Origin: Pseudogymnoascus verrucosus
Taxonomy: Eukaryota
Length of the DNA stretch: 64,000 bases
Direction: 5' to 3' (one strand)
Assembly (NCBI GenBank): GCA_001662655.1
Contig: KV460245.1
Below the pieces are notes generated by a model. The model searched no databases. It was not told the DNA's origin and saw only the letters and a list, made by a program, of their open reading frames with translations. The translations under genes and the position numbers were made by a program. This document shows, piece after piece, positions 1-35,554 of this stretch. Each line of letters starts with the position of its first letter. Positions within the stretch are counted from its first letter, which is position 1.

Positions 1-1724
1 GCATATTTCATGAGATTCGGGTAAGCCTTCGGAATGTTAGCCTCCGTCTGATGATGTGTAAATGTGAGTACTTACGGATTCTGGATCGAGCCTGCAGATA
101 TACTTCAAGGCCTCGCTATACTTCTTCGAATCCTCAATCAATATATCCACGACAATCTCATGCTCCCCATGCTTCGTAGCCAGGTATGCGGCTTGGTCAT
201 AATACCCGCCTTGGCGGCACATCGAGATCGCCGTGTCGAGATCAAACTTGAGATCCCCCGGCGACTTGATGAATTTCTCCAGCTTATCAATATCCTTCAG
301 CTTAGCGTAGCAATTCAACAACAACGTCGTATGATCCGCTGTAGCTTTATGATGCTCATGCAGCTCCTCCAGGTACTCAATCAGATTATGTATCCGCTGC
401 GAATCCAAGTACTTCCTAATGACCTGCGACGGCTCCGTGCTGTCAATAGCCTTAAGATACTGTTGCATCGCGCCATCATAATCCCCCTTCTGGTACAAAT
501 GCTCTCCATACTTCCTGAAGATAACATTCTGCTGCTGCGCATCCATCCCCGATTTCTGCGCCAGATTGATAGCGTAAATAAACAAATTCCGCTGATAAAA
601 GATCTCCAGCCTCTGCTCAAGCGTCTTCTCATGATACCTCAAAATCTTCCCCTCCAGCGTGAGCGCATACAGGTCGCCCCACAGATTCAACAGCGTCTGG
701 ATCTGACTAACCATACTCTCCGAATGCGCCACAATCTGCAGCTCCGTATCCAGCACCGTGAACGTACTCGTATTAAACAGCTCCTCCGCCTGACTCCCCC
801 CAAACCTTCTCAGCGTGCTCGATTTCGCATTCGATGTCGTGACTGGGGGGGTTATGATAGCCAAGTACTCCTCGTGGCACTGCACCAGGCTCTTGGGGCC
901 GTCATACGCAAAGCACGGCCCGCGCCCGTCAATGCCGTAGTAGTAAATCGCATCATCCCTCACCACAACCACGTCCCCATTTCTCTCATCCACCGTCATA
1001 CATCCCACCCCACACCCCGCATCCTCAATGGTCCTCGCCGGTTGCCCTTGTCCCTGCCCAGATATCACAAGTTTCAGCAACCGCGCAGTCGTACTAACAT
1101 ACAACGTCGTCAACCTCGCCACATCCCTGAATTCCACCCCCGTAACCGGCTCCTCGCTCTCAAAAACAGTCTTCTGCCTCGTCCCGCGATCATGTATCAA
1201 ATCCCCCCTCACCACCGTCACCGCCCCATTCGCAAACCCGACCGCGAGCTGACTTAAATCCCCCAGCGCCGCAAACGCACTGATCGGGAACGGCTTCCTT
1301 CCATTCTGGATACTGAGCGAGCTCGTGCACGTCGGGAACCCCGTCTTCTTCACCAGCTTGTCCAGTGCCCAGACTTTGAGAATTGGTTCTCGGGGCAGGT
1401 CCTCGGCGATCGTGACGAGCAGTGACGTCCCCTCAATCTGCCGCATATGCGTAATCACCCCGACATCATGCGCGCGCCAGGTCTTCTGGACGCGGAACCC
1501 GCGCGATAGGATCCGAACATCTCCATCGGGGGAGGCGAGGAAGAGGGAGTCGGAACCGGAGGTTATGGCGCTTATGGCGGATGCGGCGAAGATGGGGGTT
1601 TCGGGGTCGGGGGGGGTGAGCTGGGTGGCTTCGAAGAAGTCGAAGGTTTTCCACTGCCATGGGGGGTTAGATGGGGGGTGGGTGATTGGGGGGGGGAGGG
1701 AGGGCGTACGGAGGTTAAGGCCAT
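1..1724 (-). CDS. VPS11: Vacuolar protein sorting protein Vps11/Pep5 (CORVET/HOPS core), 5' part; runs off the window start
   Basis: ATG at 1724 (MALTS). Intron 1654-1709 (GTACGC..CTAAC..CAG), then WKTFDFF... Beta-propeller N-terminus followed by a clathrin-repeat-like region (YGEHLYQKGDYDGAMQQY, HTTLLLNCYAKLKD). Intron 27-75. Confidence 0.93.
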
Positions 1725-1961
1725 GGTGTTGGCATGTTGGGGGGGGGAGGTTGGAGTGGTGGTGGTGAGGTCGGAGCTATCAAGGTGGTGATAAGGGTGG
1801 CTGTGAGGCGAGGTTGAGCTATGGGGCGCTAGGCTGGATGGGGGAATATGCTAGGGACCAACCCCGCCGGGTTATCAAGTTGGAAACTGACGGTAAGACA
1901 AAGTAAACGTGATGACTATGCAGCTCAAAAGTTACGAGAGTGACTGTAAATACTAGTAATC

Positions 1962-6649: not shown

Positions 6650-7270
6650 ATGAGCGACTCCAAATCCCTTCCCCCAGATTTCCCCACCGACCCCTCCTCC
6701 CCCTCCGACCTCCCCCCCCCCGCCTACACCTCCATCTACGACTCCTCCCCTCCTCCCTCCGACACCAAACAATCCCCCTCTAACCCGCTCACCAACCTCC
6801 GCACCCGCATCGCCGCCAACCGCGCCTCCTCCTCCGATCCTGCTGCAGTCTTGCACCGACGGCTGGTCACGCACATGGCCTCGCGGACTGAGATGTTTTT
6901 GGCCGATTACGGGAGTACGGGGTTTACGGCTGCGAAGCTGAGTTTCTGCGCAAACGGCCACGTCTCACCTACCTCCTCCGAAGTTTTGACAGGCACAGCT
7001 GCGGAGGATGCAGAGAAGGAGTTTATTGAATTCGACGTCCTGGAAAGTGACCACTTCTGGGACGACCAGGACGCAGCGAATGGGCTGGCAAAGGGGTTAG
7101 AGAGGGCGTTGGAGGAGAAATTGGGATTGAAGGGGATGAGAGGGGAGGGGGTGGATGTGAGTGTGAAGGAGGAGCAGGGGGGGTGGAGGAGGGAGAATGT
7201 GTTTGGGGTTTGGGAGACGGGGACGGGGTGGGGGGTTGTGGTTAGGGTGAGGGTTGATGTTGGGGAGTAA
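6650..7270 (+). CDS. Hypothetical protein, 206 aa, N-terminal PPAY (PPxY) motif
   Basis: Intronless ORF with AAAATG start context and a coding-like C-rich to G-rich gradient. C-terminal WRRENVFGVWET beta-rich segment. No family recognised. Confidence 0.65.
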   Translation: MSDSKSLPPDFPTDPSSPSDLPPPAYTSIYDSSPPPSDTKQSPSNPLTNLRTRIAANRASSSDPAAVLHRRLVTHMASRTEMFLADYGSTGFTAAKLSFCANGHVSPTSSEVLTGTAAEDAEKEFIEFDVLESDHFWDDQDAANGLAKGLERALEEKLGLKGMRGEGVDVSVKEEQGGWRRENVFGVWETGTGWGVVVRVRVDVGE

Positions 7271-7439: not shown

Positions 7440-7918
7440 TCATCTGGAGCGGACACACACCATCCCTCCTTCTCCCCCCCCCACCAACACACATCCCAAC
7501 CTATATCTCAACGCCCTACACCTCGCCTCACTCTCCCAATACCCAGCCACAAGCTCCCAATACTCCGCAGCGACCTTCCAGCTGGTGTTCGTCCCGAGCT
7601 GGGATTCGAGCTTCGAATGAAAGACCTTGAGCTTCAAATAGGCGGCCTCGACTCGCGAGTATGCTTCTAGGAGGGAGGGAGGCGCCGTGGGTCCGAGAGC
7701 GGCGAGGGCGGGGGATAAGGGGGATAAGGGGTCCGCGGTGGGTGTGGCTGGGAGGGTGGAGAGTTGGAGGGCGAGGGCGGCAGATGTGGGGTCTGCTGTG
7801 GGTGCGGCTGGGAGGCCGGGGGGCGCTGGGGGTGGGGGTGGTCGGAGGGGGAGGGCGGGGTGGGAGGTTGTTGGTTTTGCGTGGTTGGGGGGAGGGGGGG
7901 GCTGGTGATGTTGGTCAT
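7440..7918 (-). pseudogene. Array member 1: polyproline/helical protein interrupted by a 1-nt frameshift in a G8 run (or an assembly error)
   Basis: ATG 7918 in the same ACCAGCACCAATGACC context as the paralogues. Adding one base in the run at 7894-7901 gives MTNITSPPPPPNHAK...TADPTSAALAL...LLEAYSRVEAAYLKLKVFHSKLESQL..., open to the stop at 7440. Confidence 0.6.
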
Positions 7919-8088
7919 TGGTGCTGGTGGTGCTGGTGGTGGTGTTGATGTTGATGTTTGATATTGATATTGATATTGATATTGAGGAGGCGTATATTAG
8001 ATCTGGTACTGTGATGTTCGGGAAACTTGTGTTGGGAGATTTTGGGGGGTTGGCGGCTCTTTTTTTATAATCCGGGGGGGGGAGGGAG

Positions 8089-8102
8089 TCGTATGGTTAT
8101 TT
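8089..8102 (-). promoter_or_regulatory. Array upstream element copy 1 (AAATAACCATACGA on minus strand)
   Basis: One mismatch to the consensus AAATAAACRTACGA; TATA-like TTATAAAA about 20 bp downstream at ~8063-8070. Confidence 0.6.
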
Positions 8103-8449
8103 AGGGGGTGGGAATGGGGTGAGTGTGAGTGTGGTTCTTCATCTTGTGCGCTATACTTATTAGTAGTATGGAGGGGGACAGGTGATATATCTATCATCAA
8201 TCAGCCCATGAATTTATTTAGTTTTGAAAAATTAGTGATGTATAGTAGTATCACTTATCCTTCTTCCGACTATGGCATCGACATATTGTTAGCTAGCTTT
8301 CTTACATACAATTCAATAAATGCACATTCTAAACTCCTAAATCCAAACTAAATCCAAACTCCCACATCCAACTTCCCAACCGCAACCACCCATTCACCAC
8401 CGCATCCTCTACCCCGTCCCCTCATATCCACCAGCTTATTCACCAGCCG

Positions 8450-9097
8450 TTATGTCGCGATTCTTTCGTCGCAGTAGAGGAGGTTTGACATTTGGCACAG
8501 CTCGAGCCTTGGCATCCAGCCCCTAGTTTCTGAAACCCAGACTCTCATTTCCAGGCTTTGATCACCGTCGTCAATCGTCGAGTACTGTGATTCGAGCATC
8601 GTCCGTTTCCGCTCAAGCCGCAGGTCTTTCCTACAAAGCCTCAGATATTTTTTCTCACGCTTGACGTCTTTTTTACTAATTTTGAAGGCCCTTTTATCAA
8701 GCTTCAAATACCCCTTATTAAGCTGCATGTATTCCTTCTCGCGATTTAGGTACACTTCTAACAGCTTTAAGTATTCGTCTTTGAGATGAAGGTATTCGTC
8801 TCTGTGCTGCGAATGCGCTTCCAGGAGCTGTAGGTATTGCTCTGTGCGCTGTTGATAGAGTTCGTCGCTCTGGGAGTGCAGTCCCCCCTCCATCATCTGC
8901 GAGCGGAGCGACGTAAGCCCTAAGCGGAGCGATGAGAGATGCTGGTCTTTTTCCGAGATCTGCGAGTCTAGTTTCGAGAGCGAGTCTGAGAGTGAGGTGG
9001 GCGCTGGGGCTCTAGGGGCGGGGAGTGCCGGGGGTGCGGGTTGCGGGGGAGGAGGGGGGATGGTGGTCATGATGGTGAAGTTGATGTTGAGGCGCAT
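8450..9097 (-). CDS. Array member 2: polyproline N-terminus plus heptad coiled-coil protein (ATG 9097 or 9070)
   Basis: MTTIPPPPPQ start; heptads EQYLQLL/DEYLHLK/DEYLKLL/EVYLNRE/KEYMQLN/KGYLKLD. Confidence 0.7.
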   Translation of the reverse strand: MRLNINFTIMTTIPPPPPQPAPPALPAPRAPAPTSLSDSLSKLDSQISEKDQHLSSLRLGLTSLRSQMMEGGLHSQSDELYQQRTEQYLQLLEAHSQHRDEYLHLKDEYLKLLEVYLNREKEYMQLNKGYLKLDKRAFKISKKDVKREKKYLRLCRKDLRLERKRTMLESQYSTIDDGDQSLEMRVWVSETRGWMPRLELCQMSNLLYCDERIAT

Positions 9098-9185
9098 ATT
9101 GGCTGGTGTTTGTACTGATATTTGGGAGAGATTTGTGTATATTATGGGGGGGTTGGTCTTTATTTCTATAATGTGGGGAGGGGGG

Positions 9186-9199
9186 TCGTATGTTTATTT
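9186..9199 (-). promoter_or_regulatory. Array upstream element copy 2 (AAATAAACATACGA)
   Basis: Exact consensus, upstream of a TATA-like TTATAGAAA. Confidence 0.65.
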
Positions 9200-9375
9200 C
9201 AATGGGGTGATAATATGGTGTGTGGTGGTGCGGAGGGGTGTGATTGGTTTATCATCGGCTCATAGATTCATTTAGGTTTGAGAATAACGGTTGATAGTAT
9301 TATTACTTGGCCTTCTTCTTGGTATTGTTTTAAAAGCTGTGGCCTTGAAATAATTAGTTTCTTGTATAATATGGT

Positions 9376-9933
9376 TCAATCAATAGGAGCATTCTCGTTG
9401 CGTTGGTCATATTTCATCCTGCGCTGCTCTAATTGGATATTTCGTTGCTCGTACTTCACCCTGCTCTGATCATATGGCAACTTGCGTTGGCCATACAGCA
9501 CCTTACGCAGCTCGTAACTTTCCACCCGCTTCCGCTGTAGTTCGTGCATCCGCGCATGCACTTCCTTGAGCTGCGAATGCAGCCCCCGAAGCCGCTCGTT
9601 CTTAGCGTAGTCCGGTTCCTGAAAGCACGACCGCAGTGACTCGAGATGCGAGTAGAGGGAGTCGATATGCGTTTTTTGTTCTGATAGCTCGAGGCGCGTT
9701 TCCTCAAGCTGCCAGCATTGTTCGTTGATCTGTAGGCGGGTTTCGTCGAGCTGGAGGCGGGTTTCCTGGAGCTGGAAGCGGGTTTTCTCAATCTGGGCAT
9801 GTTCCTCCTGGAATAGTGAGCATTCTTCCGAGAGTGAGGTGGCCGCTGAGGTTTCGAAGGCGGGAGCGTTGGTGGGGTCAGGAGCGGCGGAGGTGGCTTC
9901 CCCGTATGGTGGAGGAGGTGTAGTGCTGGTCAT
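9376..9933 (-). CDS. Array member 3: PPxY plus coiled-coil protein, 185 aa
   Basis: MTSTTPPPPY start; 21-nt/7-aa repeats EKTRFQL QETRLQL DETRLQI NEQCWQL EETRLEL. Confidence 0.75.
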   Translation of the reverse strand: MTSTTPPPPYGEATSAAPDPTNAPAFETSAATSLSEECSLFQEEHAQIEKTRFQLQETRLQLDETRLQINEQCWQLEETRLELSEQKTHIDSLYSHLESLRSCFQEPDYAKNERLRGLHSQLKEVHARMHELQRKRVESYELRKVLYGQRKLPYDQSRVKYEQRNIQLEQRRMKYDQRNENAPID

Positions 9934-10026
9934 TGGTACTGGTATTGATACTGATATTCAAGAAACTTGTGTTATACTTTGTGGGGGAATTATCGCCTAC
10001 CTTTATAATCCGGGGGAAAACTTTAA

Positions 10027-10040
10027 TCGTATGTTTATTT
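10027..10040 (-). promoter_or_regulatory. Array upstream element copy 3 (AAATAAACATACGA)
   Basis: Exact consensus; TTATAAA at ~10002-10008. Confidence 0.65.
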
Positions 10041-10168
10041 AAAGGGGCGGATGATGGTACGTTTGGAGGCATGTGACAGATTTACTATTAGCTTTATAAA
10101 GCTATTTACTTTCTAAAAAATAGCGGCAAGCATTAGTATCACTTAGTTGGCCTTATTCCGGCATTATT

Positions 10169-10579
10169 TTAACCCCCAAGGCATAGACATATTATTAGCT
10201 GCTCAGACTTGAAATAGTCGGCTCCTCCTGCACATAATAAATAAAACCCCACCGCAAACACTATCACCCACCCCCCATTAAGAACCGACATCACCCCAAG
10301 CGCAATCAAGATACACACCACAACAGCCCACCACCTCACTCCCTCCGCCGCCTCCCTCGTCTCACCTACCAGCCCCTCCAGTTTCTTCCCCTGTGCTTGC
10401 ATTTTCTCCATCTGGTCTCCTAATCGCTTTTCCATACCGCTTAGTCGAGTAGTAGTCTGCCTATGCATCTCTGCTACTGCAACTGTGAGAGCTGATACCC
10501 GCTCTTCGAGAGTCCGTGGTACTGCAGGCAACTGAGCGGCTCTGTGAGCGTCGTAGGGTGGTGGAGGGGGGATAGCCAT
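10169..10579 (-). CDS. Array member 4: PPxY plus short coiled coil plus C-terminal transmembrane segment(s), 136 aa
   Basis: MAIPPPPPY start; RLSGMEKRLGDQMEKMQAQ coil; hydrophobic WWAVVVCILIALGVMSVL and WVIVFAVGFYLL. Confidence 0.7.
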   Translation of the reverse strand: MAIPPPPPYDAHRAAQLPAVPRTLEERVSALTVAVAEMHRQTTTRLSGMEKRLGDQMEKMQAQGKKLEGLVGETREAAEGVRWWAVVVCILIALGVMSVLNGGWVIVFAVGFYLLCAGGADYFKSEQLIICLCLGG

Positions 10580-10874
10580 GGGTTCTGGTGCTGTGTGTGG
10601 CGCGCCGCTGAGGCTGTTTGTGTTGGAGATGGCGAGGTGGTTTGGTAACTGGGAATGGGAATGTTAATGTGGGTTTAGATGTGTGCGTAGTATTTGAGGC
10701 CGTTTTTTGTGGTGATCGGGTAGTGGGAGAAAAAGCGTGGTTGTGAGTGGGAAGAGTAGGAGTGGGATTTGAGACCATTAGTGGTAGTGCTGATAACTGG
10801 TATTTCTAGAAATTTTTGGCCTATAGATCGTGGGTGGGGTGACTGTTCTTTGAAGATTCGGATGATTCGAGGAA

Positions 10875-10888
10875 TGATACGTTTATTT
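10875..10888 (-). promoter_or_regulatory. Array upstream element copy 4 (AAATAAACGTATCA)
   Basis: Core AAATAAACGTA conserved. The flank (GGGGTCCTCGT about 35-40 bp away) is shared with copy 6. Confidence 0.55.
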
Positions 10889-10960
10889 GAGGGAATGGGG
10901 ATATTTTTTTGTGAAGCCGTAGGGGTCCTCGTTTTCATTAGAATGAGAATGTGGTAAATT

Positions 10961-11110
10961 TTAGAACGAAACTAGCAGAATCGGAACACTCCCACTTTCG
11001 CCCCATCTCCTCCCTTCCCTGGCCACTCTCTTTCCCTCCTCTGCTGCGTCATGTATCCGTCGCCCGTGAGCTTTCATATCCTCCATCCCATATTTCCGAG
11101 CATTGTCCAT
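10961..11110 (-). pseudogene. Relic of an array member (C-terminal half resembling the 10169-10579 protein)
   Basis: *TEKLHTMDNARKYGMEDMKAHGRRIHDAAEEGKRVAREGRRW aligns by eye with TTRLSGMEKRLGDQMEKMQAQGKKLEGLVGETREAAEGVRW. In-frame stop just upstream; no PPxY start. Confidence 0.4.
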
Positions 11111-11231
11111 AGTATGTAGCTTCTCCGTTTACGAGAACAGATACTTGGTTTAGTCGACCTGGATACGCCATTTTTGCGACCAAGCGCTGCTATACACATC
11201 ATTGTTCTTCTTAATCACAGACCTTGAATTC

Positions 11232-11729
11232 TTACTGCCAGTCCTGTAAGAGCTGGAGTGAGAGCTGGAGCTCTAGCTTTGTGTGCTGGCAATCGAGCTG
11301 TGCCAGCTGTAACTTGTTCCGCGCGTACTGTAGCATGCGCTGATCGTATCTGTACTCGCGCTTCCAGCCGATATACTGGAGCTTAAAATAGTGCCTCTGG
11401 AGCTGCGGGTACTGGTCCGAGCCCTCTAGATGTAGTTCCTCGAGCCACAGGTATAGTTCCTCCAGCAGTGAGTTTTTTTCATCAATCTCTAAGCATTCTT
11501 CATTGAGCTGTAAGCGTTCTCTATCGAGCTGTAACTTTTTTTGATCGCGCTGCGAGCGTATTTCTTTGATCTGTGACATTTGCTCCTCGATTGAGGTAGG
11601 CTCTTTGGCTATGGAAGCGGGTGCAAGTGCGGGCTCATGTACAGGTGCGGGTGCGTCGGCCGGGACGGGGGCTGGGGCTGGGGACGCGGTTTCCGCGTAT
11701 GGTGGAGGAGGAGGTGCGGTGGTGGTCAT
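11232..11729 (-). CDS. Array member 5: PPxY plus coiled-coil protein, 165 aa; closest to 9376-9933
   Basis: MTTTAPPPPPYAET start; RLQLNEECLEI matches RLQINEQCWQL; RYDQRMLQY matches PYDQSRVKY. Confidence 0.75.
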   Translation of the reverse strand: MTTTAPPPPPYAETASPAPAPVPADAPAPVHEPALAPASIAKEPTSIEEQMSQIKEIRSQRDQKKLQLDRERLQLNEECLEIDEKNSLLEELYLWLEELHLEGSDQYPQLQRHYFKLQYIGWKREYRYDQRMLQYARNKLQLAQLDCQHTKLELQLSLQLLQDWQ

Positions 11730-11851
11730 TGGTGCTGGTGTTGATATTAATATTGACTGTTGTTAATATTGAGGCTGATATTTGAGAATCTTGTGTTAGA
11801 TATTGTGGGGGCGGGGGGTAGCGCCTCCTTTTATGGTTCAGGAGGCGGGGA

Positions 11852-11865
11852 TCGTACGTTTATTT
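11852..11865 (-). promoter_or_regulatory. Array upstream element copy 5 (AAATAAACGTACGA)
   Basis: Exact consensus; CATAAAA about 20 bp downstream. Confidence 0.65.
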
Positions 11866-12020
11866 AGAGGAGTACGAAAATTGTTTAATGGGACTATAGG
11901 CCTTATATGTTCACTTAGTGCTGTTAATAGCGAGGGCTTAAAATAGTTGGTTTCTTCCATATAATTAATAGAAACACGTTCCAAACTCCCCATCCAAACT
12001 CCCATCCTCAGCCCACCCCC

Positions 12021-12545
12021 TCACTCTCTCATCAAATAAAGAAACCCCATCATCACCATACAAATAAGAAGGAACGGCATCAGCTTCCTTACATCTTCAT
12101 CCATCACTTCCTTCCCCCTCCCCTCCTTTAACATCCGTTCCTGCGCCTCCACTCTAGCAACTAGCCGCCTCTCCATACCCCCTAACTCTTTCACCATCTG
12201 CCTCCGCATCTTGTCCACCACATCCTCTACTACGCGACGTTGTGTTGCAGCCGTTATATCGTAGAGGCTTGATGCTCTAGGTTCGGGCTCTGCAGGGGTG
12301 GTAGAAGCTTCTCCTGCAGGAGCTTTAGGATTTGCTGGGCCAGGCCTAGGAGCGGCGACGGCGGCGGCGGCGACAGTGTATGGTGGCGGGGTGGTCATTG
12401 GTGGTGCTGCTGATGATGGCGGGATTTGCGCACAGTGTGGTGTATCTAGTCGTGGAGATGAAGAAGGGGGTTGCGAGTGCAATAATGCCCTGCCTTCCAA
12501 ATCGTTGAGGAAATGGTTTGTCATGTCTATCATGCCGTAATCCAT
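12021..12545 (-). CDS. Array member 6: PPxY plus coiled coil plus C-terminal TM (tail-anchor-like); ATG 12545 or 12398
   Basis: MTTPPPY at 12398; ELGGMERRLVARVEAQ resembles RLSGMEKRL of member 4; terminal LMPFLLICMVMMGFLYL. Confidence 0.7.
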   Translation of the reverse strand: MDYGMIDMTNHFLNDLEGRALLHSQPPSSSPRLDTPHCAQIPPSSAAPPMTTPPPYTVAAAAVAAPRPGPANPKAPAGEASTTPAEPEPRASSLYDITAATQRRVVEDVVDKMRRQMVKELGGMERRLVARVEAQERMLKEGRGKEVMDEDVRKLMPFLLICMVMMGFLYLMRE

Positions 12546-12659
12546 GGGTGTCGGTGGTTGGCGATACTGGCGGTGATACTGGGGGTTTTGGGAAGTTTGG
12601 AATGGGGATGGGGAAAGGGTTGGCACGTTTTTTATATATTTTGGGGTGGCTTGACAGGA

Positions 12660-12673
12660 TCGTACGTTTATTT
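12660..12673 (-). promoter_or_regulatory. Array upstream element copy 6 (AAATAAACGTACGA)
   Basis: Exact consensus; TATATAAAA at ~12630-12638. Confidence 0.65.
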
Positions 12674-13525: not shown

Positions 13526-14396
13526 TCAAACCTTCACCAACCTCCCCTGACAGCCCGTCCCCAACTCCCTCCCTCGTTTCCTCATCTTCCACAAGCCCCT
13601 CACTCGGCGCCTACCGCTCTTGAGTGGCACCTGAGCCACAAAACTCTCCTTCTTCTCTATATCCTTGCTGCCCTCTTCTTCCGACTGCGCTTCAACCGAC
13701 ATCTCAGCCTCCACCTCTAACAACCCCGTCTCCACAAATCTCGTCACCCTCCCCCTCGGCACCCCACGAGGCACATACGTCCCTTCAAGCGACCATGTAA
13801 TTCCCGGCTTCTTCTCCCTTCTCGCAATATCATCGCAAAGTTCAACTAGCTCATCCCTATCCGGCGCCGGCAGACCTAGGTTGAACGCTCTGGCAGCGGC
13901 GTAGCGCGTGGCGGTGCGGCCAAGTAGTGTGCTGTGGACGTCGAATAGTGTGGTGGGGGAGTCGTCGATGGTTTGGGTTTCTGCTGGTATTGGGGTAGTG
14001 GGGATGGGTCCCTTGATGTCTGCTGGTATCGAGATAGCCGGGACGGAAGCCTCGGTCTCTACTACGGGCTCTGATGAGCAGGCGCCGATGGCTTTAGGTC
14101 GGTCTTCAACACGCGTCTTTAGGAGGGGTGCCTTGGGGATCACCTGGGCATGTAGGTGTGAAGTTGCAAATGCTTCGGGAGAGGTACAGGTTTTCCTTGG
14201 GAGCTTGGAGGACGCAGCGAGGGAATGGAGACGGGCTTTCACTCGTTTGAGGGTTGACACGGCTAAAGGCATGTCCTTGGCGCTGTAGGGTTGGTTTGCG
14301 CAGCGCTGGGACGAGATAATAGCAAATGCGGATTGCGGCTGTTGGAGCTCGCTGGCTTGCTTGCCCGTGGCTGCTTGAGGCTCTGGAGCGGGCATG
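13526..14396 (-). CDS. Hypothetical protein, about 290 aa
   Basis: Long open frame from ATG (MPAPEPQ...), Pro/Thr-rich middle, no recognisable domain. Confidence 0.55.
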
Positions 14397-14970: not shown

Positions 14971-17900
14971 TCAACCCAAACTAATCATCGCCTCGTCGTT
15001 CAATGGCTTCGGAGTCTGCAGAGTAAGATCGTCTGGAACCACCTCTTCTCTTGTAGCTATACTTCTGGCTGGGGACGCAGATCTTACTTCTGCCGCCTGG
15101 AAGGCACTGTTTTTAAGCGCAGCCTGCCTCTCAGCCTTGCGGAGGTTATTCTTTGCTTCCCGCTGCCGTATAAGATCCTTCTCCGCCTCGATAGCTTTAT
15201 TGCGGCGGGACTCAACATCCTCCCTCCGTACCACCCTGCGTAGCCCCTCTGATGCATGAATCAAGCCGTCAATGCTGATAGCATGGTTGGTCATCTGGTG
15301 GTTGATGTACGTGTATATACCGGCCGGCGTCGGGCACTGCAGAAGCTGCTTCTCATTGAGCTTGAGTAGGGCCAGCGCGACCTGGAACAGAAAAGTGCTG
15401 CCATCGTTGATACAGAATACCACATCCCAGACGCGGAATAGCGCCTCGGCTGACAGGCAGTCTGTGAATACGCTCAGAAACCACTGGAAAGTTAGCGCCT
15501 CTAGCTCGATACCTAGCTCGTCGAGGTGCTTCGACAGTTTCGGCAGGAGCTCTGCTACAAAGTGGCGCAGAACTTGCTGGTCAGCACGTGATGCGAGGAG
15601 GCTATGGTCGTAATATCCTTGTGGTAGGATATTCTCGATAATGCTTGTAAGTAGCCAGAAGGCGTCCTCGGCTGTAGGCATAATCAAGAGAAGGCAAGCC
15701 GTAATCAAGTTCATGCCTTGGCAATATCCCACTTCCTTGTTCCTTCTAGAGTAGGCTAAAAGCACTTCCTCCAGCTTCGCGACGCCTGGGCCTCGCCTGA
15801 AGAAGATGTTGTCCGTCAGAGTGCGGTTTATATCCATGCTGATTTGTGAGACGATAATAGGATCATCGTTTCCATCGCGATTCGTAACAAGATCATCGTA
15901 ATAACCGGGGACTCGTAGAGTAGTAGCCCCCGAGCATTCCGCCCAAATCTTTGCACGGTATGACACTGGGATTCCAGATAACACCAGCTGCTTGAACTCT
16001 TGCCACTTTGCCCTCCCAGCTTTTCCTTTATTTCCAAGTCCTGAGACTCCGATGATCTCGCCGTCTGTTATGCTGACTTCGGGCATGACTGTCTTGGATC
16101 GTTGTGACTTCGAGTCCCCCGCAGCCGCTGTGGCAGCCTCGCTCTCACGCTTACGCTCAGCGCGTACTTTGCGAAGGAAATCATTCCATTTAACAGTTTT
16201 CTCGCGCTGCAGAGAATCATGCACCTCTCCAAGCTGCTTTAGAAGCAGCTTCACAGGCTCAATATCCTCTTCTGCCAATGGGACAGCGGACTTTGTAGAA
16301 ACTGACGTCGAAACGGTCGTGGATACAGTTGGTACGGCAACCGTGACATTTGTAGGTGGTACAAAGCCTCCATCAGATGCTTTCATCCCAACAAGCTTTG
16401 GCGCCTCCTCGCCTTCCATAACTTCCAGATTGGGTAAACTCATCGAGGGAGTGTGCGAAAGCAGCTCCGTCGGGAACGTCGCTATCTTCAGGTAGTCTTG
16501 CCACTTTTTGCCCGGTTTGCCATTCTCGACAGGCTCTTCTGTTGACAACGGCGTGTCTGGCCTTTCATCAACTTCAGCACTGGTATCTATAATAGTCTCC
16601 GGAGACGAGATGGTATCTCTAGCAGTGTTGATCATTTCCGTCCTGCTTCCGTGTCTTCCGTGCTTCGTGTTCTTCAGGGTATCAGTAGCATCCTTCTGCC
16701 TCTTCTTCCGTCTCTGGTCGTAAATGAAGCCAAATCGATCCGTTAGAAACTCCGGGTTATATTGATGGTTATTGACTTGAGTGACGGTAGGCGGCTGGTT
16801 CTCGAAAGGTAGAATTGTGTCCATCTCAACGGGTCCGTAGTTGGTCACATCCGTCGCCTTGTCTTGCTGGTCCGCGGCAATAGCTTGAAGTCCATTGCGG
16901 GTTGGACCGCCTGAAGAGGTTCCACTGATTGTCCTGCGATTACCCTGTAATACCCTACCAGTCTGGCGCGAAACAACTCTCGGTGTAGCAGCTGATGATT
17001 GAGACTTGGAAGACTGTCGCCCCGTAGCGTCATTAGACTGCCCTTGTACGGAAGACGCATCGCTATCCCGACTTGGTGTTGCAGCTCCACTAGCCCCGGC
17101 CACCAGCTTGAGGGCCATAGCTGCTAGAGACATTGAAGGCTTACGGGTCGTTTGTGAGTTAATATTGTGTAAGCTGGATGCTCTGCTCGCACGCGTAGGA
17201 GAATCCGCATCCGGCGGGTGAAACAGTCCATTTTGTAGCACACTGCGGCGATCTGCTTTTCGAGGTGGATTTGGGAGTCCTGTCGGTGCGTCCGGGTCAT
17301 CATGCTCCTCGCTGATACTGCTTGCTTGGCTGCTCTTTTTGCTGGTTCCGCCCCATATATAGTCTTTCCAGTTCCTCGTCGTCCCCTTGGATAGGTCGGG
17401 CGCCGGTGCTTGCTTCGGCTTGTCTAATGCTCGGATCGTAGCTTCGCCAGATAAGCCGTAGTCGTCGATTTCGGCGTCAATAATCATGGCGTCATTTATC
17501 ATCGTCTCCAAGCCACCAACCCCAGAGTCAGTTGCTATGCTCGCATCATCCGCATATTTCGATTCCTCGATCGCTCGGAGACGCCTCTCGAGGTCCAAGT
17601 TGGACAAGCCACATTCAAGAATGACCTTCCTCAGCGCTCTCTCCCTCTCCTCCGCCTTCTGTCGTAGCCGTGCAACCTGTGCATCCCTTTGAGCAAGGTC
17701 TGAAGAGATCTGACGGACAAGATTCACCGCCCCTTGTCGTGCTATCAAACGCTCGAGAAACTCGTCGCTGGCAAGATGTATCGCGCCAGGGACGTAGCTC
17801 GTGTTCATCGGCGCGTCATCGAACAGTGCTGATCGCGCTTCATTTGGCGGCGAGGACTGCGTCAGGCTCTCTACCATAGAGGGCGCATGGTTCGAAGTTC

Positions 17901-18348
17901 GTCTCGTCGGGAGAGCAGTCCTGTCATCGATAAGTGCCGCGTCAAAAGGACGGGGTTTCTGGAGCGACGGCGACTCGGGCGAGAATGAGGGGAATGATGT
18001 GAGTGACTTGTCGGAAGCAGCTATCGAGGACGCCGAGCTAGACGCGTATGATGGCGTCTTGCGTGATCGTACTCTCGTAGTCTGTGATCTCCGGCTCCTA
18101 GTCGAAATGTCGGAGTGCTGAGAGGAGCTCCTCTTCTGGATGTGTATGGGGTCGTCGGTCTCCATCGAGCCGTCAAGGGAAACCTCAAGGTGGCGGCAGT
18201 GCACGCATCGGTAAGCCTTTCTCAAAACGAAGCTCTCCAAACGATCAAGAGTGTTAGGGCTACTGAAACGCTGTAGTTGGTCGCAGGTTGGCGTTGTTGT
18301 GCGAGCGGTCTGAGGTGCGTTGTCAGTTAGAGGGGCCAAACTCGTCAT
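14971..18348 (-). CDS. TBC-domain Rab GTPase-activating protein with an N-terminal coiled coil (start may be ATG 18165)
   Basis: TBC signatures GIPVSYRAKIW, ISMDINRT (arginine finger), GYCQGMN (glutamine finger), AFWLL, WFLSVF, RVWD. Confidence 0.92.
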   Translation of the reverse strand: MTSLAPLTDNAPQTARTTTPTCDQLQRFSSPNTLDRLESFVLRKAYRCVHCRHLEVSLDGSMETDDPIHIQKRSSSQHSDISTRSRRSQTTRVRSRKTPSYASSSASSIAASDKSLTSFPSFSPESPSLQKPRPFDAALIDDRTALPTRRTSNHAPSMVESLTQSSPPNEARSALFDDAPMNTSYVPGAIHLASDEFLERLIARQGAVNLVRQISSDLAQRDAQVARLRQKAEERERALRKVILECGLSNLDLERRLRAIEESKYADDASIATDSGVGGLETMINDAMIIDAEIDDYGLSGEATIRALDKPKQAPAPDLSKGTTRNWKDYIWGGTSKKSSQASSISEEHDDPDAPTGLPNPPRKADRRSVLQNGLFHPPDADSPTRASRASSLHNINSQTTRKPSMSLAAMALKLVAGASGAATPSRDSDASSVQGQSNDATGRQSSKSQSSAATPRVVSRQTGRVLQGNRRTISGTSSGGPTRNGLQAIAADQQDKATDVTNYGPVEMDTILPFENQPPTVTQVNNHQYNPEFLTDRFGFIYDQRRKKRQKDATDTLKNTKHGRHGSRTEMINTARDTISSPETIIDTSAEVDERPDTPLSTEEPVENGKPGKKWQDYLKIATFPTELLSHTPSMSLPNLEVMEGEEAPKLVGMKASDGGFVPPTNVTVAVPTVSTTVSTSVSTKSAVPLAEEDIEPVKLLLKQLGEVHDSLQREKTVKWNDFLRKVRAERKRESEAATAAAGDSKSQRSKTVMPEVSITDGEIIGVSGLGNKGKAGRAKWQEFKQLVLSGIPVSYRAKIWAECSGATTLRVPGYYDDLVTNRDGNDDPIIVSQISMDINRTLTDNIFFRRGPGVAKLEEVLLAYSRRNKEVGYCQGMNLITACLLLIMPTAEDAFWLLTSIIENILPQGYYDHSLLASRADQQVLRHFVAELLPKLSKHLDELGIELEALTFQWFLSVFTDCLSAEALFRVWDVVFCINDGSTFLFQVALALLKLNEKQLLQCPTPAGIYTYINHQMTNHAISIDGLIHASEGLRRVVRREDVESRRNKAIEAEKDLIRQREAKNNLRKAERQAALKNSAFQAAEVRSASPARSIATREEVVPDDLTLQTPKPLNDEAMISLG

Positions 18349-18674
18349 TCCTCATGGAACGCACAGGCAGGGCCTAGGCACGCGATGCCTTAGCTGCTAC
18401 TTACCAGTGGCGATATAGAGCCTAAGCGGCTCTTGAAGAGAGATATTCTCCTCGTATACGACTGAGAACGGGTGTGACCAGGTAGTAGTAAGCTTGCAGT
18501 TGCTGTATAATGCAAGTCGAGAGAATGTGGGAAGTGAGTGGGAGCTTTACTCAGTGACGCCAATACCACACTGACGCACACAACAACAAGAATCAACAAA
18601 ATGTTCCAGGTTTCCGGTGCCCACGTTAACCACGATAAGCCAAAAGTGCAGTGTAGCCTTGCGAGGTGTTTTAG

Positions 18675-26677: not shown

Positions 26678-28061
26678 TCATTCAATCAGTATCTTCCTCT
26701 GGTTCCCCACCGACGTGAACCCCAGCGCCTTCAGGGCGTCGCGGTCCGTGGCTTTAATGACGGTGCGGGCGGGAAGCATGGGGTTATTCGCGTCGACGTG
26801 GGATGCGTCCTTGGCGGCCTGCTCGATGGATTCCATTTCCTCCTTGCACGCTTGCTGGTCGAAGGGGCAGACGATGATGGGTTGGCGGAGGACGATGTCG
26901 CGGGTGTTTGTCATGTGTGCCTGTTTTCGTCATTAGTAAGGTAAGGTAAATTATGTATGGCGCCATGGGGTCGGCGATCTGAGGGGGAGGGGAGGCGCAC
27001 CTTTATTATCAGGAAGAACTCGATCTTGTACAGGCTTCCTGTCGTGGTGAACGAGTTGACGCCGTACATGGGGAAATGCGGCTTGCCCCTCCTAATAATC
27101 CCCTCCGCATCCCTATTCTCCTTACTCGGAAACACGAGACCGAGGTTGGTGGTATAGCCCGTCCCGGGCATCCTGACCCCAATCGGCGTAGTCTGCTTCG
27201 CAATCCTATTCACCTTCTTCGTCGGCTCGTCGCCCTCGTGGTTAAACGTAATCTCCTCCTCGATCGCCATCGTGATCTTCTGAATCATCACCTTCGTCGC
27301 CTTCTTCATATGGTCCAGGTTCGGACTCAGCTTGATATACACGCTGACTGGATCGAGCGGCCCGTAGGACCATCGCGGTAGTGATATGCCCAGCGTGATG
27401 AGGTGGTCCGACACCATATCTGCCGACTCCGGGCGGTTGTACATGCCGAACGTCGACAACGTATCGTATCTCTGTATCGGCACCGGCGTCACGAACTTGC
27501 TCTGGTCCGCGCTCCCCTGCTGCACCGTAACTACCAGCTCATACCGCGTCTCTGCGGTCCGGCTCGGGAGCTGCAGACTGGCCGGTGGGATCCTCCGGTT
27601 CGTCTCCTGTCCTCCTCGCCCAAACGGTATGAACAGCACGAACGGTAGGTCCATCATGACCACATTCTCCGACACCCTCCCGATATCGCACTTCCATAAC
27701 AAGAGCTCCTTGCCCACTATATCCACCGTCTCGCGCCGGGGCGTTCCAAGGTGTTTCTTCACGATCAGCTCGGCGGCGGGGTGTATCGTTTCGCATCGCT
27801 GTAAACATATCGAGACGAGGGATATGGCAACCGGGGCCGAGACGCCCTCCTTCGGGCGGATTTCGACTTTGCCCTCTATGCGCGGCTGCGTGGAACACCA
27901 TTAGCTAGCTATCCCGCCGACGTCACCGCATATCGGAGCTCTCCCTCTCTCTCCCGCGTCGCAAGGGGGGGGGGGGGACTTACCAGAGTAGCAGAGATTC
28001 CAGGGTACCCGACCAAGAAGTTGCTATTTGGCGGCCCTAGAACCCGTACGAACGCCGCCAT
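26678..28061 (-). CDS. Arrestin-fold protein (probably Rgl1/Art1/Spo23-like family)
   Basis: ATG 28061 MAAFVRVLGPPNSNFLVGYPGISATL | PRIEGKVEIR. Introns 27886-27983 and 26921-27000. Arrestin-like beta strands (DLPFVLFIP, IPPASL, YELVVTV, SFTTTGSLYKIEF). Confidence 0.75.
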
Positions 28062-31033: not shown

Positions 31034-34000
31034 CTAAAACGGCACCAGAACAACAAACTTCACCCAATCCTCCCCCCCCAACCTCGTAACCTTCCTCTCA
31101 ACCCCAACCCAATACCCCCCAAACACCCCCTCCCCCACCATCCTAAACACCTCTCCCCCCACCTTCTTCTCCTCCCCCCCCTTCGGCGGTCTCGGCGCCT
31201 TCTTCGCAACAAGCACAACCTGCCTCGTATACTCCTCGTCATCAACATCCACAAGCTCTCTATCAACACTAACCAGCAGATCCCCGAATTCGCTAGAAGG
31301 GTCCGAGGAGTATTTAATCCCGTCTTGGGCTTGCAGAATTAGCGGTGCGGGAGGTAGGGCGGGTGCGCGAACGGGTGGTGCGCTGGAGGGCGCTGCTGCG
31401 GCGGCGAAGGGAGGGGTGGGGTAAGGGGTGATGTAGGCGCGGGGAGGGGCGGACATGAAGCCCTGTGTGTTATCGGCAGGGACGCCGCGCGGGTTCTGCG
31501 GGGTGGAGAAGACCTGTTGGTGGTGGTGCAACTGGGATGGGAATTGGGGACGGGCGAATTGGTCGGTTTCGGGATGGGATGGGCGGGTTGATGGAGCGGC
31601 GGTGGGGTCGCGGGGGGGTTGGGTTAGGTAGGGCTTTGAATCGATGTGTGGGGCGTCGGCCATGGGGACGTCGGCTGAGGGGTGGGAGGGGCGAGAGGCG
31701 GCTTCCTGGGTTGCGGCGCGGGATGGCTGGTTGGCTGATGTGTTCTCCATGGGTGCTGGTTGAGTAGTCGCCATGCTTGACTTATCCTGAACTGCCGCGG
31801 TTTCAACAGTAGCCACCGGGGTAGCGCTATATTCAGCAGGCGGGGTAGAATTCGAAGGAAGCGGCTGCACTGGCGCTGTAGTCTCAACCGGAGCATCAAC
31901 CATCGCAACATCCACCGTATTCTCCACAGACTTCGGCTGAGGAGTCACCTCACTTTCAGATGGAATAGGCGTCATCGGTTCATTGAGTACAGATCGCAAT
32001 GACAAGCTTGTTCGGGTACTACCCACGCCTGGCCATTTATTAACAGCCGGAGACTCAGTACGTGCAGATCTCTGCACCGGAGCAGCTTCTGCAGCGGTTA
32101 GCATGGTTGCAAATCCCGGTCGGACGGCCGGTTCCTGCGTCGCCGTCGCTGGTGTCGACACCGCCCTCGTCATATCCGAGAGAGGAGAAGGCGCTGAAAC
32201 CGCACCACCACCTAGCTGAGCCGGGTAATCCCCAGTTCGAGAGCGCTTCTTAGGTCTCTTGGGCGTAGCAGCGCCAGTCTGTTTGGCGATCAACTGGTCG
32301 ATGTGTTTCTCGACGTGTCGTCTCTGGCCTTCTCTATCCAGGTTGTGGTATTGAGAGGTCACCTTCATCCTGCACCATTTTTCCATCTTCACCCTCTGCG
32401 TCTCTCGGTCTAGCAGGTGGAACTTGCTGCGGTCGGATTCAGGGGCGGCTACACTGCTGCCGGTGGATGTCGGCGTGTTGTTGCCCTGTCGGAGGTGGCT
32501 GTAGGCAGCGGTAAGGTCCTTGGCATGTCGAGTCCAAGACGCATCAGCCCCATTGCTCTTGGTCCCAGCCCCATTGCTCTTGGCCTCAGCCTCATTGCTC
32601 TTGTTGGTCTCAGCCCTATTGCTCTTGTTAACCTCCGCCGGTTTGGCAGGTGGGGCATTGGAATTCAGCATGGATTTTTTCCGAGCTTCTAGTGCTTCTT
32701 GCTCAGATGTACTACGGCGAATCGCCTCAGCCAAATCCGCATCTCCCTTTGAGTTCAGAGTTTCTCTCTCCTTGGCTTCTTTAGCCTCTATCCTGGCCTG
32801 CCTCACCATCTGGGCTCTAGCATCACTGGCGGCCTTGTCGGATCTTTTGGCAGTGTGCTTAACTTCGACCTTCTTCAAGGGGGTGACGACAACCTCGCCA
32901 TTCTTCCTCTGCTTCTCAACTTCTCTGGCAAGGGCGCCTTGCTCCAGTTGGTCGACTCTCTTGCGATTATATTCGATGATGTTCATCCCCTTCGCCGCCG
33001 CCTTCTCGGCCACGATTCTCTTCGCTTCCCTCACAGCTCTGTCGATACTTGGTCCCTGTTCCCTTTCGTTATAGTCTGGGTCCGCCACGCAGATTCGGCA
33101 ATACTCCTCTATCTCCGTGCGAATCAGGTCTTTGAGGTACTTTTCGAAGACGCAAGTATCGTAGTTGACCCAACACCCACCGGACAGCTTAGGATAGTTT
33201 CCATCTTTGAGATACCGACCGTCTCGGGTTTCCGGGACGACCTTCACGCGGAAGACGCCGTGGGCTTGGATAACACCGTACATCGCGTGCTTGTTGAAGA
33301 CTTCGGGCTCTGAAGAATCTTTCCAGTAGCCAATAAGGACATCTTTGCCCTTGATGACATACTTTGATCGCTCTCTTGGTGGAGTTTCCGAACGACTTGG
33401 AGAACCAGTAATGCTCCGAATTGCGTCTGGGATGGGCATTGGGAGAGGAGAAGCCTTTTGTGACTTTTTAGGAGGCTTCATGTCGAGAGGGCTGTCATTA
33501 CGCGCCGCTCTATTCGCTGAAGGTGTGTAAACCTGCTCTGGACCTTTCGTGGTCGAACTGTTTGGAGATGAAGAAGGCCCGTCGTAGGAACCCCCAGGCG
33601 TGCTCTTATCGGGCTTGCCTTCATTTGATTTGCGAGGCGTTTTCTTAGATTTCTTTGCGCTAGTGCCTTTGTTCTCGATCTTAACATTGGATTCAGAAGC
33701 GGCCGCAATTTCTTTTGCCTCTGCAACTGCACTCTGATCGAGGGCATCTCGCACCTCTGGCTTTTCTTCTCTGTTCCAAGTCTGAACTCTAATTCTGACG
33801 TACTCAGTTAACTCTTTCCTAGAGAGACCTTTAAGGTGAGGATCCAGCAGCCACTCATGCGACTTTGCCGCCCATGTGCCGGTGCCTGAAGGAAAGTTCC
33901 CAGTGTACTTTGATCCGTCCTTGCGCTCGGGATATTTGCGGCCATGCAATGCAAGTTTGGGATCTAGAAATCCGTAGAGTACATGCTTTCTCTCATCGAT

Positions 34001-34507: not shown

Positions 34508-35554
34508 CGTTCCTCAATTGCTGACTTGGCTGTGATGTCCAGTCAGTAGCTGAAATAAGTTTTTATCGTTTGTTTTGCACAAAGGATGGTTGACATTGAT
34601 GAAGGTGATGTGTGGAGGTGCTAATAGGATTGATGCAGTCTAGCAAACTAGGGCGTAGATGATCGCATGAAAAAGCATCGTAGAAACACCCCCACGAATT
34701 TCGCCAAACTCAAACGAGTGGCTGCGACCTTAATGATCGAGAAAGAACCCTAATGATGATAAAATAGAATACTTACTTTGATGATTCCATCTATTGCGAG
34801 AAGTGAGTTGATGATGATGAAGAGGATGAAACAACTACCCGAGGAAGTGAAGTGATGGTGGGTGAATTTCTTTGTTAGGGAGATTAGGAGAGATTCGCTT
34901 TTGACAGACTGGCAGGTTCGTCGGCTAGGGCGGCCCTCAAACGGCGAAGGGTGAAAGGAGAGTAAGCGAGGCGAATAGGAATCAAACTAGGAGTACGAGT
35001 TGACAAAGAATGTTAAATGAATGCGCTAGCCACTGTGGCAGAAGCTGCGGGCGCCTAGGTAGTTGCGAGAGTCGGACCAGTCAGGGTAAGCGTCGTTAGG
35101 TTAAGGCAACCTCAAACAAATATTTGACGATCACCTGGGGAAAGGAGGAGGGCTGTGTTGTTGAGTTGGAACAGGATAATGTCTCGATGGTGTTGAGAAA
35201 TTGAAGTGAAGTAAGTAAAGTAACCTTAGAGAAACTATACTGTAGTAAGATTACCTCTGTCTATACAAGGGTACCTCGTAATGTAACAAATATGCTCTAT
35301 TCTACTAGAATATGAGTGTGTCAGTAGTTCTTACCCATTCCGTACGTACCATCTCACCTAACCGTCATCTTAGGAAGCGAGATCCGATAATCCCTCCCTA
35401 GTAGTTTTAGCCTAAGGCTCCACTCTACGCCTACACACTGCCAAGTTATTGTCACTTAACACACCTAATTTCACCAAACGATCACAACATAATTTGATAT
35501 TTGGCACCAAAGTGTTGTTGCTTTGTTTCTGGTTTCTTTATGGCACACAAACAG

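What the first reader, a model, noticed from the sequence alone, without database searches (positions are those of the whole stretch)
7440..12673. Tandem array of six divergent small PPxY/coiled-coil genes: candidate undescribed Rsp5-linked system
Seen: six co-oriented, intronless minus-strand genes at roughly 0.8-1.1 kb spacing plus one relic. All have an M-x(2-5)-polyproline segment at or near the start. Four keep PPPY (ATG 9933, 10579, 11729, 12398) and two have lost the Tyr (PPPPPQ, PPPPPN). Two classes alternate: long soluble coiled coils (8450, 9376, 11232) and short coils with a C-terminal TM (10169, 12021), which suggests a duplicated two-gene unit. Start contexts (CCAATGACC) and intergenic blocks (AGTATCACTTA..CCTT.TTCCG, ATCCAAACTCCC) recur while the proteins have diverged strongly. 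Known: PPxY recruits Rsp5/Nedd4 ligases; in fission-yeast wtf drivers, PY motifs distinguish antidote from poison. Inference: a fast-evolving, co-regulated module of ubiquitin-ligase adaptors or a poison/antidote-like conflict locus, with members heterodimerising through their coils. No homology to wtf is claimed.
Basis: partly seen in the sequence, partly recalled or inferred. Interest (0 to 1): 0.8.

Follow-up and report, generated by a model that had tools for sequence, protein, structure and literature searches.

The report
Tandem fungal PY-motif coiled-coil gene array
A 5.2-kb stretch of a Pseudogymnoascus-like fungal chromosome carries six head-to-tail copies of a small, almost unannotated gene unit encoding proline-tyrosine-motif coiled-coil proteins, some membrane-anchored; they may recruit a ubiquitin ligase, but this is untested.

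Summary
The array is real. Six minus-strand units (12673 to 7440) each carry the same upstream motif (6 of 6 window matches; 0.14 expected by chance). Five have intact ORFs whose codon usage is best in the called frame. The sixth (ATG 7918) is out of frame with its ORF, and no extra relic was found.

Gene order is TM, long, TM, long, long, frameshifted long.

- TM class (10169-10579, 12021-12545): a disordered N-terminus with a PY motif, a coil of about 60 residues and a C-terminal hydrophobic anchor. An exhaustive HMMER search gave 11 hits. All four named ones are Pseudogymnoascus hypothetical proteins, including one from P. destructans. [LP]PPY is kept in 6 of the 7 homologues that cover that region.
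- Long class (8450-9070, 9376-9933, 11232-11729): an N-terminal PY motif (Tyr lost in one copy) plus a predicted two-helix hairpin partly built from 21-nt repeats. No homologue was found.

The classes share only the promoter, leader and first codons. There is no match to Pfam, Rfam or solved structures.

Best reading: a genus-restricted, co-regulated family of PY-motif adaptors or substrates of the Nedd4-type ligase (Rsp5/HulA). That step is inference only. Expression, binding, pairing and any poison-antidote behaviour could not be tested here.

The parts
12660..12673 (-). Upstream motif AAATAAACGTACGA of unit 1, 128 nt before ATG 12545; a TATA-like run follows about 20-25 nt downstream
12021..12545 (-). 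TM-class gene, 174 aa. N-terminal extension, PPPY at residues 53-56, coil, C-terminal anchor at 154-172.
   Evidence: P0007 equals its residues 50-151 and sits on a contig of the same length as those of the flanking genes.
11852..11865 (-). Upstream motif of unit 2
11232..11729 (-). Long-class gene, 165 aa. MTTTAPPPPPY, then a Pro/Ala-rich linker, then a coil with 21-nt repeats (11490-11534).
10875..10888 (-). Upstream motif of unit 3 (AAATAAACGTATCA). The ATG at the usual distance (10778) is out of frame with the gene.
10169..10579 (-). TM-class gene, 136 aa. MAIPPPPPY, helix 24-101 running into hydrophobic 85-103, second hydrophobic helix 105-118.
10027..10040 (-). Upstream motif of unit 4
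9376..9933 (-). Long-class gene, 185 aa. MTSTTPPPPY, disordered 1-25, helices 26-103 and 109-180. 21-nt repeat arrays at 9721-9796 and 9398-9513.
9186..9199 (-). Upstream motif of unit 5
8450..9097 (-). Long-class gene, 206 aa from ATG 9070 (MTTIPPPPPQ, Tyr lost) or 215 aa from the in-frame ATG 9097. Heptad-rich over residues 25-179.
8089..8102 (-). Upstream motif of unit 6 (AAATAACCATACGA)
7440..7918 (-). Frameshifted sixth unit. ATG 7918 (CCAATGACC) opens an 83-codon Pro-rich frame ending at 7667. The coil-like ORF (7440..8096) lies in another frame and has no ATG.

Best explanation
This is a tandemly duplicated, co-regulated gene family restricted, as far as the databases show, to Pseudogymnoascus-type fungi.

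Each unit has its own promoter (conserved motif plus TATA-like box) and a short intronless ORF. The ORF starts with, or contains early on, a Pro-rich stretch ending in Tyr, which is a PY motif ([L/P]PxY).

Two body types are attached to this shared 5' module:
- a coil of about 60 residues that runs straight into a C-terminal membrane anchor (tail-anchored topology, with PY and coil facing the cytosol);
- a soluble antiparallel two-helix hairpin of about 150 residues, built partly from 7-codon repeats.

Most likely mechanism (inferred, not shown): the exposed PY motif binds the WW domains of the Nedd4-family ligase Rsp5/HulA. The anchored members would then act as small membrane-resident adaptors or self-sorting substrates of ubiquitin-dependent endosome/vacuole traffic. 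The soluble members would be PY-bearing partners, competitors or decoys. Copies that have lost the Tyr or the reading frame are decaying or have changed role.
For: Shown:
- Six units share one promoter motif, 6 of 6 window matches, plus aligned TATA-like and leader blocks.
- Codon usage is best in frame for 5 of 6 genes.
- The 9933 and 11729 proteins are paralogous at E about 1e-6 after composition correction.
- The TM class has homologues elsewhere. There are 11 proteins at E<=0.001 among 1.84 billion representatives. The four named ones are all Pseudogymnoascus: WSF 3629, VKM F-3775, and P. destructans with two gene models.
- [LP]PPY is present in 6 of the 7 homologues that cover the region N-terminal to the coil, while the rest of that region is barely alignable.
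- Hydrophobic anchors are predicted in both TM-class genes.
- The long-class PY segment is predicted disordered: pLDDT is below 50 for residues 10-27 and averages 53 for residues 1-10.

Established knowledge: PPxY/LPxY motifs bind the WW domains of Rsp5/Nedd4, and the small membrane proteins Bsd2 and Tre1/2 use them as adaptors (PMC8050425, passages; abstracts of PMC2171029, PMC2824488 and PMC8509885 in the listing).
Against: - No expression data could be obtained, and no binding test was possible.
- A run of five prolines can also serve profilin, SH3 or other WW proteins (recalled).
- The Tyr is absent in the 9070 gene and in homologue P0012.
- The sixth unit is frameshifted.
- The long class has no homologue in any search, so its conservation is unproven.
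- An out-of-frame ATG at 10778, in a good initiation context, precedes the 10579 start and could hamper its translation if it lies in the transcript.
- Neither P. destructans gene model (P0014, P0017) ends in a visibly hydrophobic segment (judged by eye). The anchor is therefore not universally kept, or those models are wrong.
- There is no homology to any known Rsp5 adaptor.
Confidence: 0.4

Rival explanations
1. Generic scaffold proteins. The coils are stage-specific structural or tethering proteins (for example of spores, septa or stress bodies). The N-terminal polyproline serves another ligand such as profilin, SH3 domains or a non-ligase WW protein, and the Tyr is incidental to Rsp5.
For: The proline runs are longer than a PY motif needs: PPPPP in 4 of 6 units. 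One intact copy lacks the Tyr. Structural neighbours are only generic helical hairpins, with 0 matches at E<=0.001.
Against: Across TM-class homologues the conserved element is [LP]PPY, not the proline run. P0009 and P0010 keep LPPY without a long proline run.
Confidence: 0.2
2. Largely non-functional DNA. The long-class ORFs are young or decaying duplicates (proto-genes or pseudogenes) kept open by chance and repeat structure. Only the TM class is a real gene family.
For: No long-class homologue was found in 5.8 billion proteins or in metagenome contigs. Of the 8 array ORF versions looked up, none is in the protein collection, although the collection does hold P0007, a 102-residue part of the 12021 gene. 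One unit is frameshifted. The 9070 protein is not significantly similar to the others.
Against: Three ORFs of 165-206 codons are each preceded by the intact promoter module. Their codon usage is as good as that of flanking housekeeping genes: 0.085-0.15 against 0.13-0.20. The 21-nt repeats stay in frame.
Confidence: 0.15
3. Divergent brevin-like SNAREs or SNARE mimics. The TM class would be a lineage-specific relative or mimic of synaptobrevin-type R-SNAREs (Pro-rich N-terminus, heptad motif of about 60 residues, tail anchor). The long class would be soluble coil partners or inhibitors.
For: The TM-class profile aligns over nearly its whole length to full-length VAMP2 (2kog_A), covering the Pro-rich part, the coil and the membrane segment, at E 0.3. 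The architecture is the same.
Against: E 0.3 is not significant, and the alignment needs a 6-residue insertion inside the motif. The Pfam synaptobrevin model is not among the matches of any of the 10 members scanned at E<=10. Foldseek gave no match.
Confidence: 0.08
4. Conflict locus. This would be a toxin-antidote or drive-like system in which PY-bearing copies are routed to the vacuole through Rsp5 and neutralise co-assembling PY-less copies, in the manner of wtf antidote and poison.
For: The array shows tandem amplification, fast divergence, loss of the Tyr or the reading frame in some copies, coding repeats and lineage restriction. wtf antidotes use N-terminal PY motifs and co-assembly (bioRxiv 10.1101/2024.08.27.609905, passages).
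Against: There is no multi-span toxic-looking protein and no evidence of alternative PY-less isoforms. The array sits among housekeeping genes. The TM class is conserved across species at 48-74% identity, so it is not hypervariable. There are no segregation or polymorphism data.
Confidence: 0.07

Closest known systems
Yeast small membrane PY-motif partners of Rsp5 (Bsd2, Tre1/2, Sna3)
   Same: They are small membrane proteins whose cytosolic PPxY motifs bind Rsp5 WW domains and drive ubiquitin-dependent sorting to the vacuole (PMC8050425, passages; PMC2171029, abstract in the listing).
   Different: There is no sequence or domain similarity. Here there is a single C-terminal anchor plus a coil and an early PY motif, together with soluble coil-only paralogues, all in one tandem array with a common promoter. 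Details of Sna3 topology are recalled, not checked.
Roseolovirus U24
   Same: It is a small, putatively tail-anchored membrane protein with a Pro-rich N-terminus and a PY motif that binds Nedd4 WW domains strongly (PMC5209733, abstract and passages). Its layout is the same as that of the TM class.
   Different: It is viral, shows no homology, has no coil of comparable length and is not a gene family. The resemblance is one of architecture only.
wtf antidote proteins of fission yeasts
   Same: They have an N-terminal PY-motif domain recognised by Rsp5/NEDD4. They also show coding-sequence repeats, rapid divergence, multi-copy families and function through co-assembly (bioRxiv 10.1101/2024.08.27.609905, passages).
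   Different: wtf proteins have several membrane spans, and one gene makes both poison and antidote from alternative starts. Here there are 0 or 1 anchors (possibly a hairpin in the 10169 gene) and separate genes. There is no homology and no drive evidence.
Synaptobrevin/VAMP R-SNAREs
   Same: They have a Pro-rich N-terminus, a heptad coil of about 60 residues abutting a C-terminal membrane segment, and a similar size. There is a weak whole-length profile match to VAMP2.
   Different: The match is not significant (E 0.3) and the Pfam family model is not matched. The conserved PY motif is, as far as I recall, not a feature of brevins.

Membership tests
PY-motif adaptors/substrates of Rsp5/Nedd4 ligases (functional class) | [L/P]PxY motif in an exposed cytosolic segment | tested here: met
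   PP.Y lies within 14 residues of the start in 4 array genes. [LP]PPY is present in 6 of 7 TM-class homologues. The long-class segment is predicted non-helical with low pLDDT. The TM-class N-terminus is non-helical, with pLDDT 76 and 65 for residues 1-20.
PY-motif adaptors/substrates of Rsp5/Nedd4 ligases (functional class) | Physical binding to WW domains of the ligase, dependent on the Tyr | not testable with these tools
PY-motif adaptors/substrates of Rsp5/Nedd4 ligases (functional class) | Homology to a described adaptor family (arrestin fold, Bsd2/Ndfip, Sna3, SPRY adaptors) | tested here: not met
   No Pfam family reaches its cut-off for any array protein or homologue.
wtf meiotic drivers | Multi-span membrane protein | tested here: not met
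   The long class has no hydrophobic segment. The TM class has one C-terminal anchor, or two adjacent hydrophobic helices in the 10169 gene.
wtf meiotic drivers | Poison and antidote made from one gene by alternative transcription starts; transmission distortion | not testable with these tools
   No RNA run was listed, and there are no crosses.
Synaptobrevin R-SNAREs (Pfam PF00957) | Match to the family model | tested here: not met
   PF00957 is not among the matches of any of the 10 members scanned at E<=10. The PDB profile match to VAMP2 is only E 0.3.
Synaptobrevin R-SNAREs (Pfam PF00957) | Continuous heptad SNARE motif with a central Arg layer directly before a tail anchor | tested here: inconclusive
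   A coil directly abuts the anchor. The only alignment to VAMP2 needs a 6-residue insertion within the motif, so the layers cannot be assigned.

The most novel reading that the evidence does not exclude
The array is a toxin-antidote-type conflict locus of a leotiomycete. It would have arisen independently of wtf but use the same logic. Copies with an intact PY motif are sent by Rsp5/HulA to the vacuole and carry along co-assembling coil partners. Copies that have lost the motif (the 9070 gene) or are made without it are harmful when left alone.
Probability: 0.07. Interest if true: 0.85.

Novelty: new variant of a known kind. Interest (0 to 1): 0.45.

Why it matters
If the PY motifs do engage Rsp5/HulA, this would be an undescribed, genus-restricted set of ligase adaptors or decoys. 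It has an unusual build: one shared promoter-plus-PY module fused to two unrelated bodies, a tail-anchored coil and a soluble hairpin. It would show how new ubiquitin-ligase clients arise by tandem duplication and module reuse.

The genus includes the bat white-nose pathogen P. destructans. Its copy of the TM-class gene looks altered at the C-terminus, so presence, absence and decay of the array across the genus may be informative.

The finding also shows that most of a 6-kb 'empty' interval in the public annotation holds plausible genes. It remains a sequence-only inference without expression or binding data.

Tried and rejected
- RNA evidence: the look-up of sequencing runs listed no RNA holder, so read laying could not be used.
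- Own genome: none is held. Copy number elsewhere in the genome and genome-wide use of the promoter motif could not be checked.
- Long class: two word-index searches, with the single 185-aa protein and with the 3-sequence alignment, gave no hit.
- Metagenome scans with the TM-class and long-class alignments found pattern matches (249 and 598 stretches) but no relative.
- ESM Atlas: the 185-aa protein is held letter for letter. Feature search gave nothing, and structure neighbours are generic bacterial helices. The 174-aa protein gave nothing.
- Other searches: Pfam gave only sub-threshold chance-level hits. Rfam gave none. PDB sequence profiles gave nothing significant. Foldseek gave 0 matches for the TM model and only E>=0.047 helical hairpins for the long model.
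- Candidate TM-class relic at 10961-11110: rejected, no alignment.
- Homology of the two classes beyond the PY module: hhalign aligned a single column.
- The first tblastn without composition correction was swamped by Pro-rich noise and its output was cut. I used the corrected run instead.
- Earlier scan findings: none.
- Literature: there were no papers for the four locus tags. None of the 10 listed papers mentions Pseudogymnoascus. Searches gave background only.


Full report
**What is there**

The window is a gene-dense ascomycete region with housekeeping genes: VPS11, an SPFH protein, a RabGAP, Sen54, ZPR1, DBR1 and others. The closest relatives of the array proteins are from Pseudogymnoascus species, so I infer a Pseudogymnoascus-like source.

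Between 12673 and 7440 the minus strand holds six head-to-tail units. Each is preceded by the motif AAATAAMCRTAYSA. This motif has 6 matches in 64 kb, all on the minus strand and one per unit, against 0.14 expected; 0 of 100 shuffles reach 6. A TATA-like run and a conserved leader block follow each motif.

The motif lies 102-136 nt before an ATG in five units and 184 nt before it in the sixth. There is a motif before the first gene and none after the last, so it belongs to the promoter of the downstream gene and not to the 3' end of the upstream one. The start context CCAATGACC occurs 4 times in the window, always at an array ATG.

**The genes**

Five ORFs are intact:
- 12021-12545: 174 aa, or 125 aa from the internal ATG 12398
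- 11232-11729: 165 aa
- 10169-10579: 136 aa
- 9376-9933: 185 aa
- 8450-9070: 206 aa, or 215 aa from ATG 9097

For all five, codon usage trained on ten large neighbouring ORFs scores highest in the called frame among the six frames. The scores are 0.013-0.15, against 0.13-0.20 for the four reference ORFs that were re-scored.

It is a pseudogene or an assembly error.

I found no further relic. A candidate at 10961-11110 does not align to the TM class. Composition-corrected tblastn finds no other member in the window.

**Two body types on one 5' module**

The order is TM, long, TM, long, long, long (frameshifted). Promoter-to-promoter spacings are 1785 nt (TM to TM) and 1825 nt (long to long) for the first four. 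This fits one duplication of a two-gene unit.

*TM class.* The 10169 and 12021 genes have C-terminal hydrophobic segments (Kyte-Doolittle 2.31 and 2.01). AlphaFold2 models the 136-aa protein as a helix from 24 to 101 that runs into the membrane segment, followed by a second hydrophobic helix at 105-118 (mean pLDDT 72).

*Long class.* These proteins have no hydrophobic segment. The 185-aa protein is modelled as a disordered N-terminus (1-25) followed by two long helices, 26-103 and 109-180 (pLDDT 79.5, pTM 0.57). Parts of the coils are 21-nt (seven-codon) tandem repeats at 9721-9796, 9398-9513 and 11490-11534.

*Relationships.*
- The 9933 and 11729 proteins are significantly similar (E about 1e-6). 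The 9070 protein is not significantly similar to the others.
- A profile-profile comparison of the two classes aligns one column only.
- DNA identity between the 11729 and 9933 units peaks at the ATG (0.78) and the promoter (0.67). It falls to 0.3-0.6 in the body.

What all six units share is therefore the promoter, the leader and the first dozen codons: Met, two to four small residues, then a proline run ending in Tyr. PP.Y within the first 14 residues is found in 4 of 258 Met-started frames of at least 100 aa in the window, all four in the array.

**Relatives elsewhere**

The long class gave nothing in two word-index searches or in a metagenome scan.

The TM class gave one word-index hit: a hypothetical protein of Pseudogymnoascus sp. 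WSF 3629, 74% identical. In an exhaustive HMMER search of 1.84 billion representatives it gave 11 proteins at E<=0.001, four of them at E<=1e-10.
- Four are named, all Pseudogymnoascus hypothetical proteins: WSF 3629, VKM F-3775, and P. destructans with two gene models.
- One (P0007) is part of the 12021 gene itself and lies on a contig of the same length as those of the flanking genes.
- One (P0011, 585 aa, six repeated stretches) looks to me like an unrelated repeat protein.
- The rest are unnamed.

The P. destructans protein shares the 49-residue N-terminal extension of the 12021 gene (42% identity over 168 columns after composition correction, E 1e-27). ATG 12545 also lies at the usual distance from the promoter motif. 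I therefore take 12545 as the start, with the PY motif internal at residues 53-56.

In the 9-sequence alignment, 7 sequences cover the region N-terminal to the coil. Six of these have [LP]PPY at the same place, and one (P0012) has LPPLP without Tyr. The rest of that region is barely alignable. This is the best evidence that the motif itself is under constraint.

In the 10169 gene the ATG at the usual promoter distance (10778) is out of frame. Its first residues weakly resemble the N-terminus of the VKM F-3775 protein (E 0.086 for one comparison). An ancestral extension may have been lost by a frameshift there; this is tentative.

**Annotation status**

The flanking genes (6650-7270 plus strand, 13526-14395 minus strand) are in the public protein collection as exact sequences. 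None of the eight array ORF versions I looked up is, and only the 102-residue fragment P0007 represents the array.

**Known families**

- No Pfam model reaches its cut-off for any member or homologue.
- Rfam gives nothing.
- Foldseek gives 0 matches for the TM model. For the long model it gives only non-significant helical hairpins such as the p85 iSH2 domain and YscO, best E 0.047.
- The TM-class profile aligns along its whole length with full-length VAMP2 at E 0.3. This reflects the brevin-like layout of a Pro-rich N-terminus, a coil and a tail anchor. The match is not significant, needs a 6-residue insertion in the motif, and the Pfam synaptobrevin model is not matched by any of the 10 members. 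I do not file the family there.

**How it most likely works**

Shown: the units, the shared promoter, the coding signal, the two architectures, and the conservation of the PY motif in the TM class.

Inferred: PPxY/LPxY motifs are the ligands of the WW domains of Rsp5/HulA and other Nedd4-family ligases. Small membrane proteins such as Bsd2 and Tre1/2 use them to recruit the ligase (PMC8050425, passages; abstracts). The putatively tail-anchored viral protein U24 has the same layout and binds Nedd4 WW domains (PMC5209733).

I therefore think it most likely (about 0.4) that the anchored members are membrane-resident PY adaptors or self-sorting substrates. The soluble members would be PY-bearing partners or competitors, and all would be switched on together by one transcription factor.

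Rivals:
- another proline ligand, with a purely structural role for the coils (0.2)
- largely non-functional long-class ORFs (0.15)
- SNARE-like function (0.08)
- a wtf-like conflict system (0.07)

For the conflict reading, the parallels are PY motifs, coding repeats, co-assembly and rapid divergence (bioRxiv 10.1101/2024.08.27.609905, passages). They are suggestive, but nothing specific was found for it.

**What stays open**

Expression is open because no RNA holder was listed. Distribution of the long class is open because no fungal genome DNA could be searched. Every biochemical step is also untested.

**Verdict**

This is a real, mostly unannotated, genus-restricted tandem family with a conserved PY motif and a neat modular build. 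The Rsp5 link is plausible but unproven, and the conflict-locus idea is unsupported. Interest is moderate.

Noticed in passing
window 6650-7270 (+): The annotated 206-aa hypothetical protein (P0003), convergent with the last array unit, also carries a PY motif (LPPPAY near residue 21-26) in a Pro/Ser-rich N-terminus. It has no Pfam match and no similarity to the array proteins.
   Followed up: partly
window 10461-10778 (-): A 105-codon ORF starts at ATG 10778, the position where the promoter motif predicts the start of the 10169 gene, but it is in another frame and overlaps ATG 10579. It could be an upstream ORF or the remnant of a frameshifted N-terminal extension (E 0.086).
   Followed up: partly
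P0014 and P0017 (P. destructans homologues of the 12021 gene): The two public gene models (163 and 211 aa) diverge after the coil, and neither ends in a visibly hydrophobic anchor. Either the anchor has decayed in the bat pathogen or the gene has been mis-modelled.
   Followed up: no
window 26911-27900 (-), 37-1776 (-), 14971-18351 (-): An ORF with an arrestin C-terminal domain (the classical PY-adaptor fold), VPS11 and a RabGAP-TBC gene lie within 15 kb of the array. This is probably coincidental, since the region is full of housekeeping genes.
   Followed up: no
window 31034-34513 (-): An 1159-codon open frame has no Pfam match at E<=1e-5.
   Followed up: no
window 7945-7985 and the leaders of the other units: The 5' leaders contain short ATCAAT/ATCAAC-type repeats (TTGATA x 6.7 on the plus strand at 7945-7985). 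In the 9070 unit a single base difference in this leader creates the in-frame ATG 9097.
   Followed up: partly
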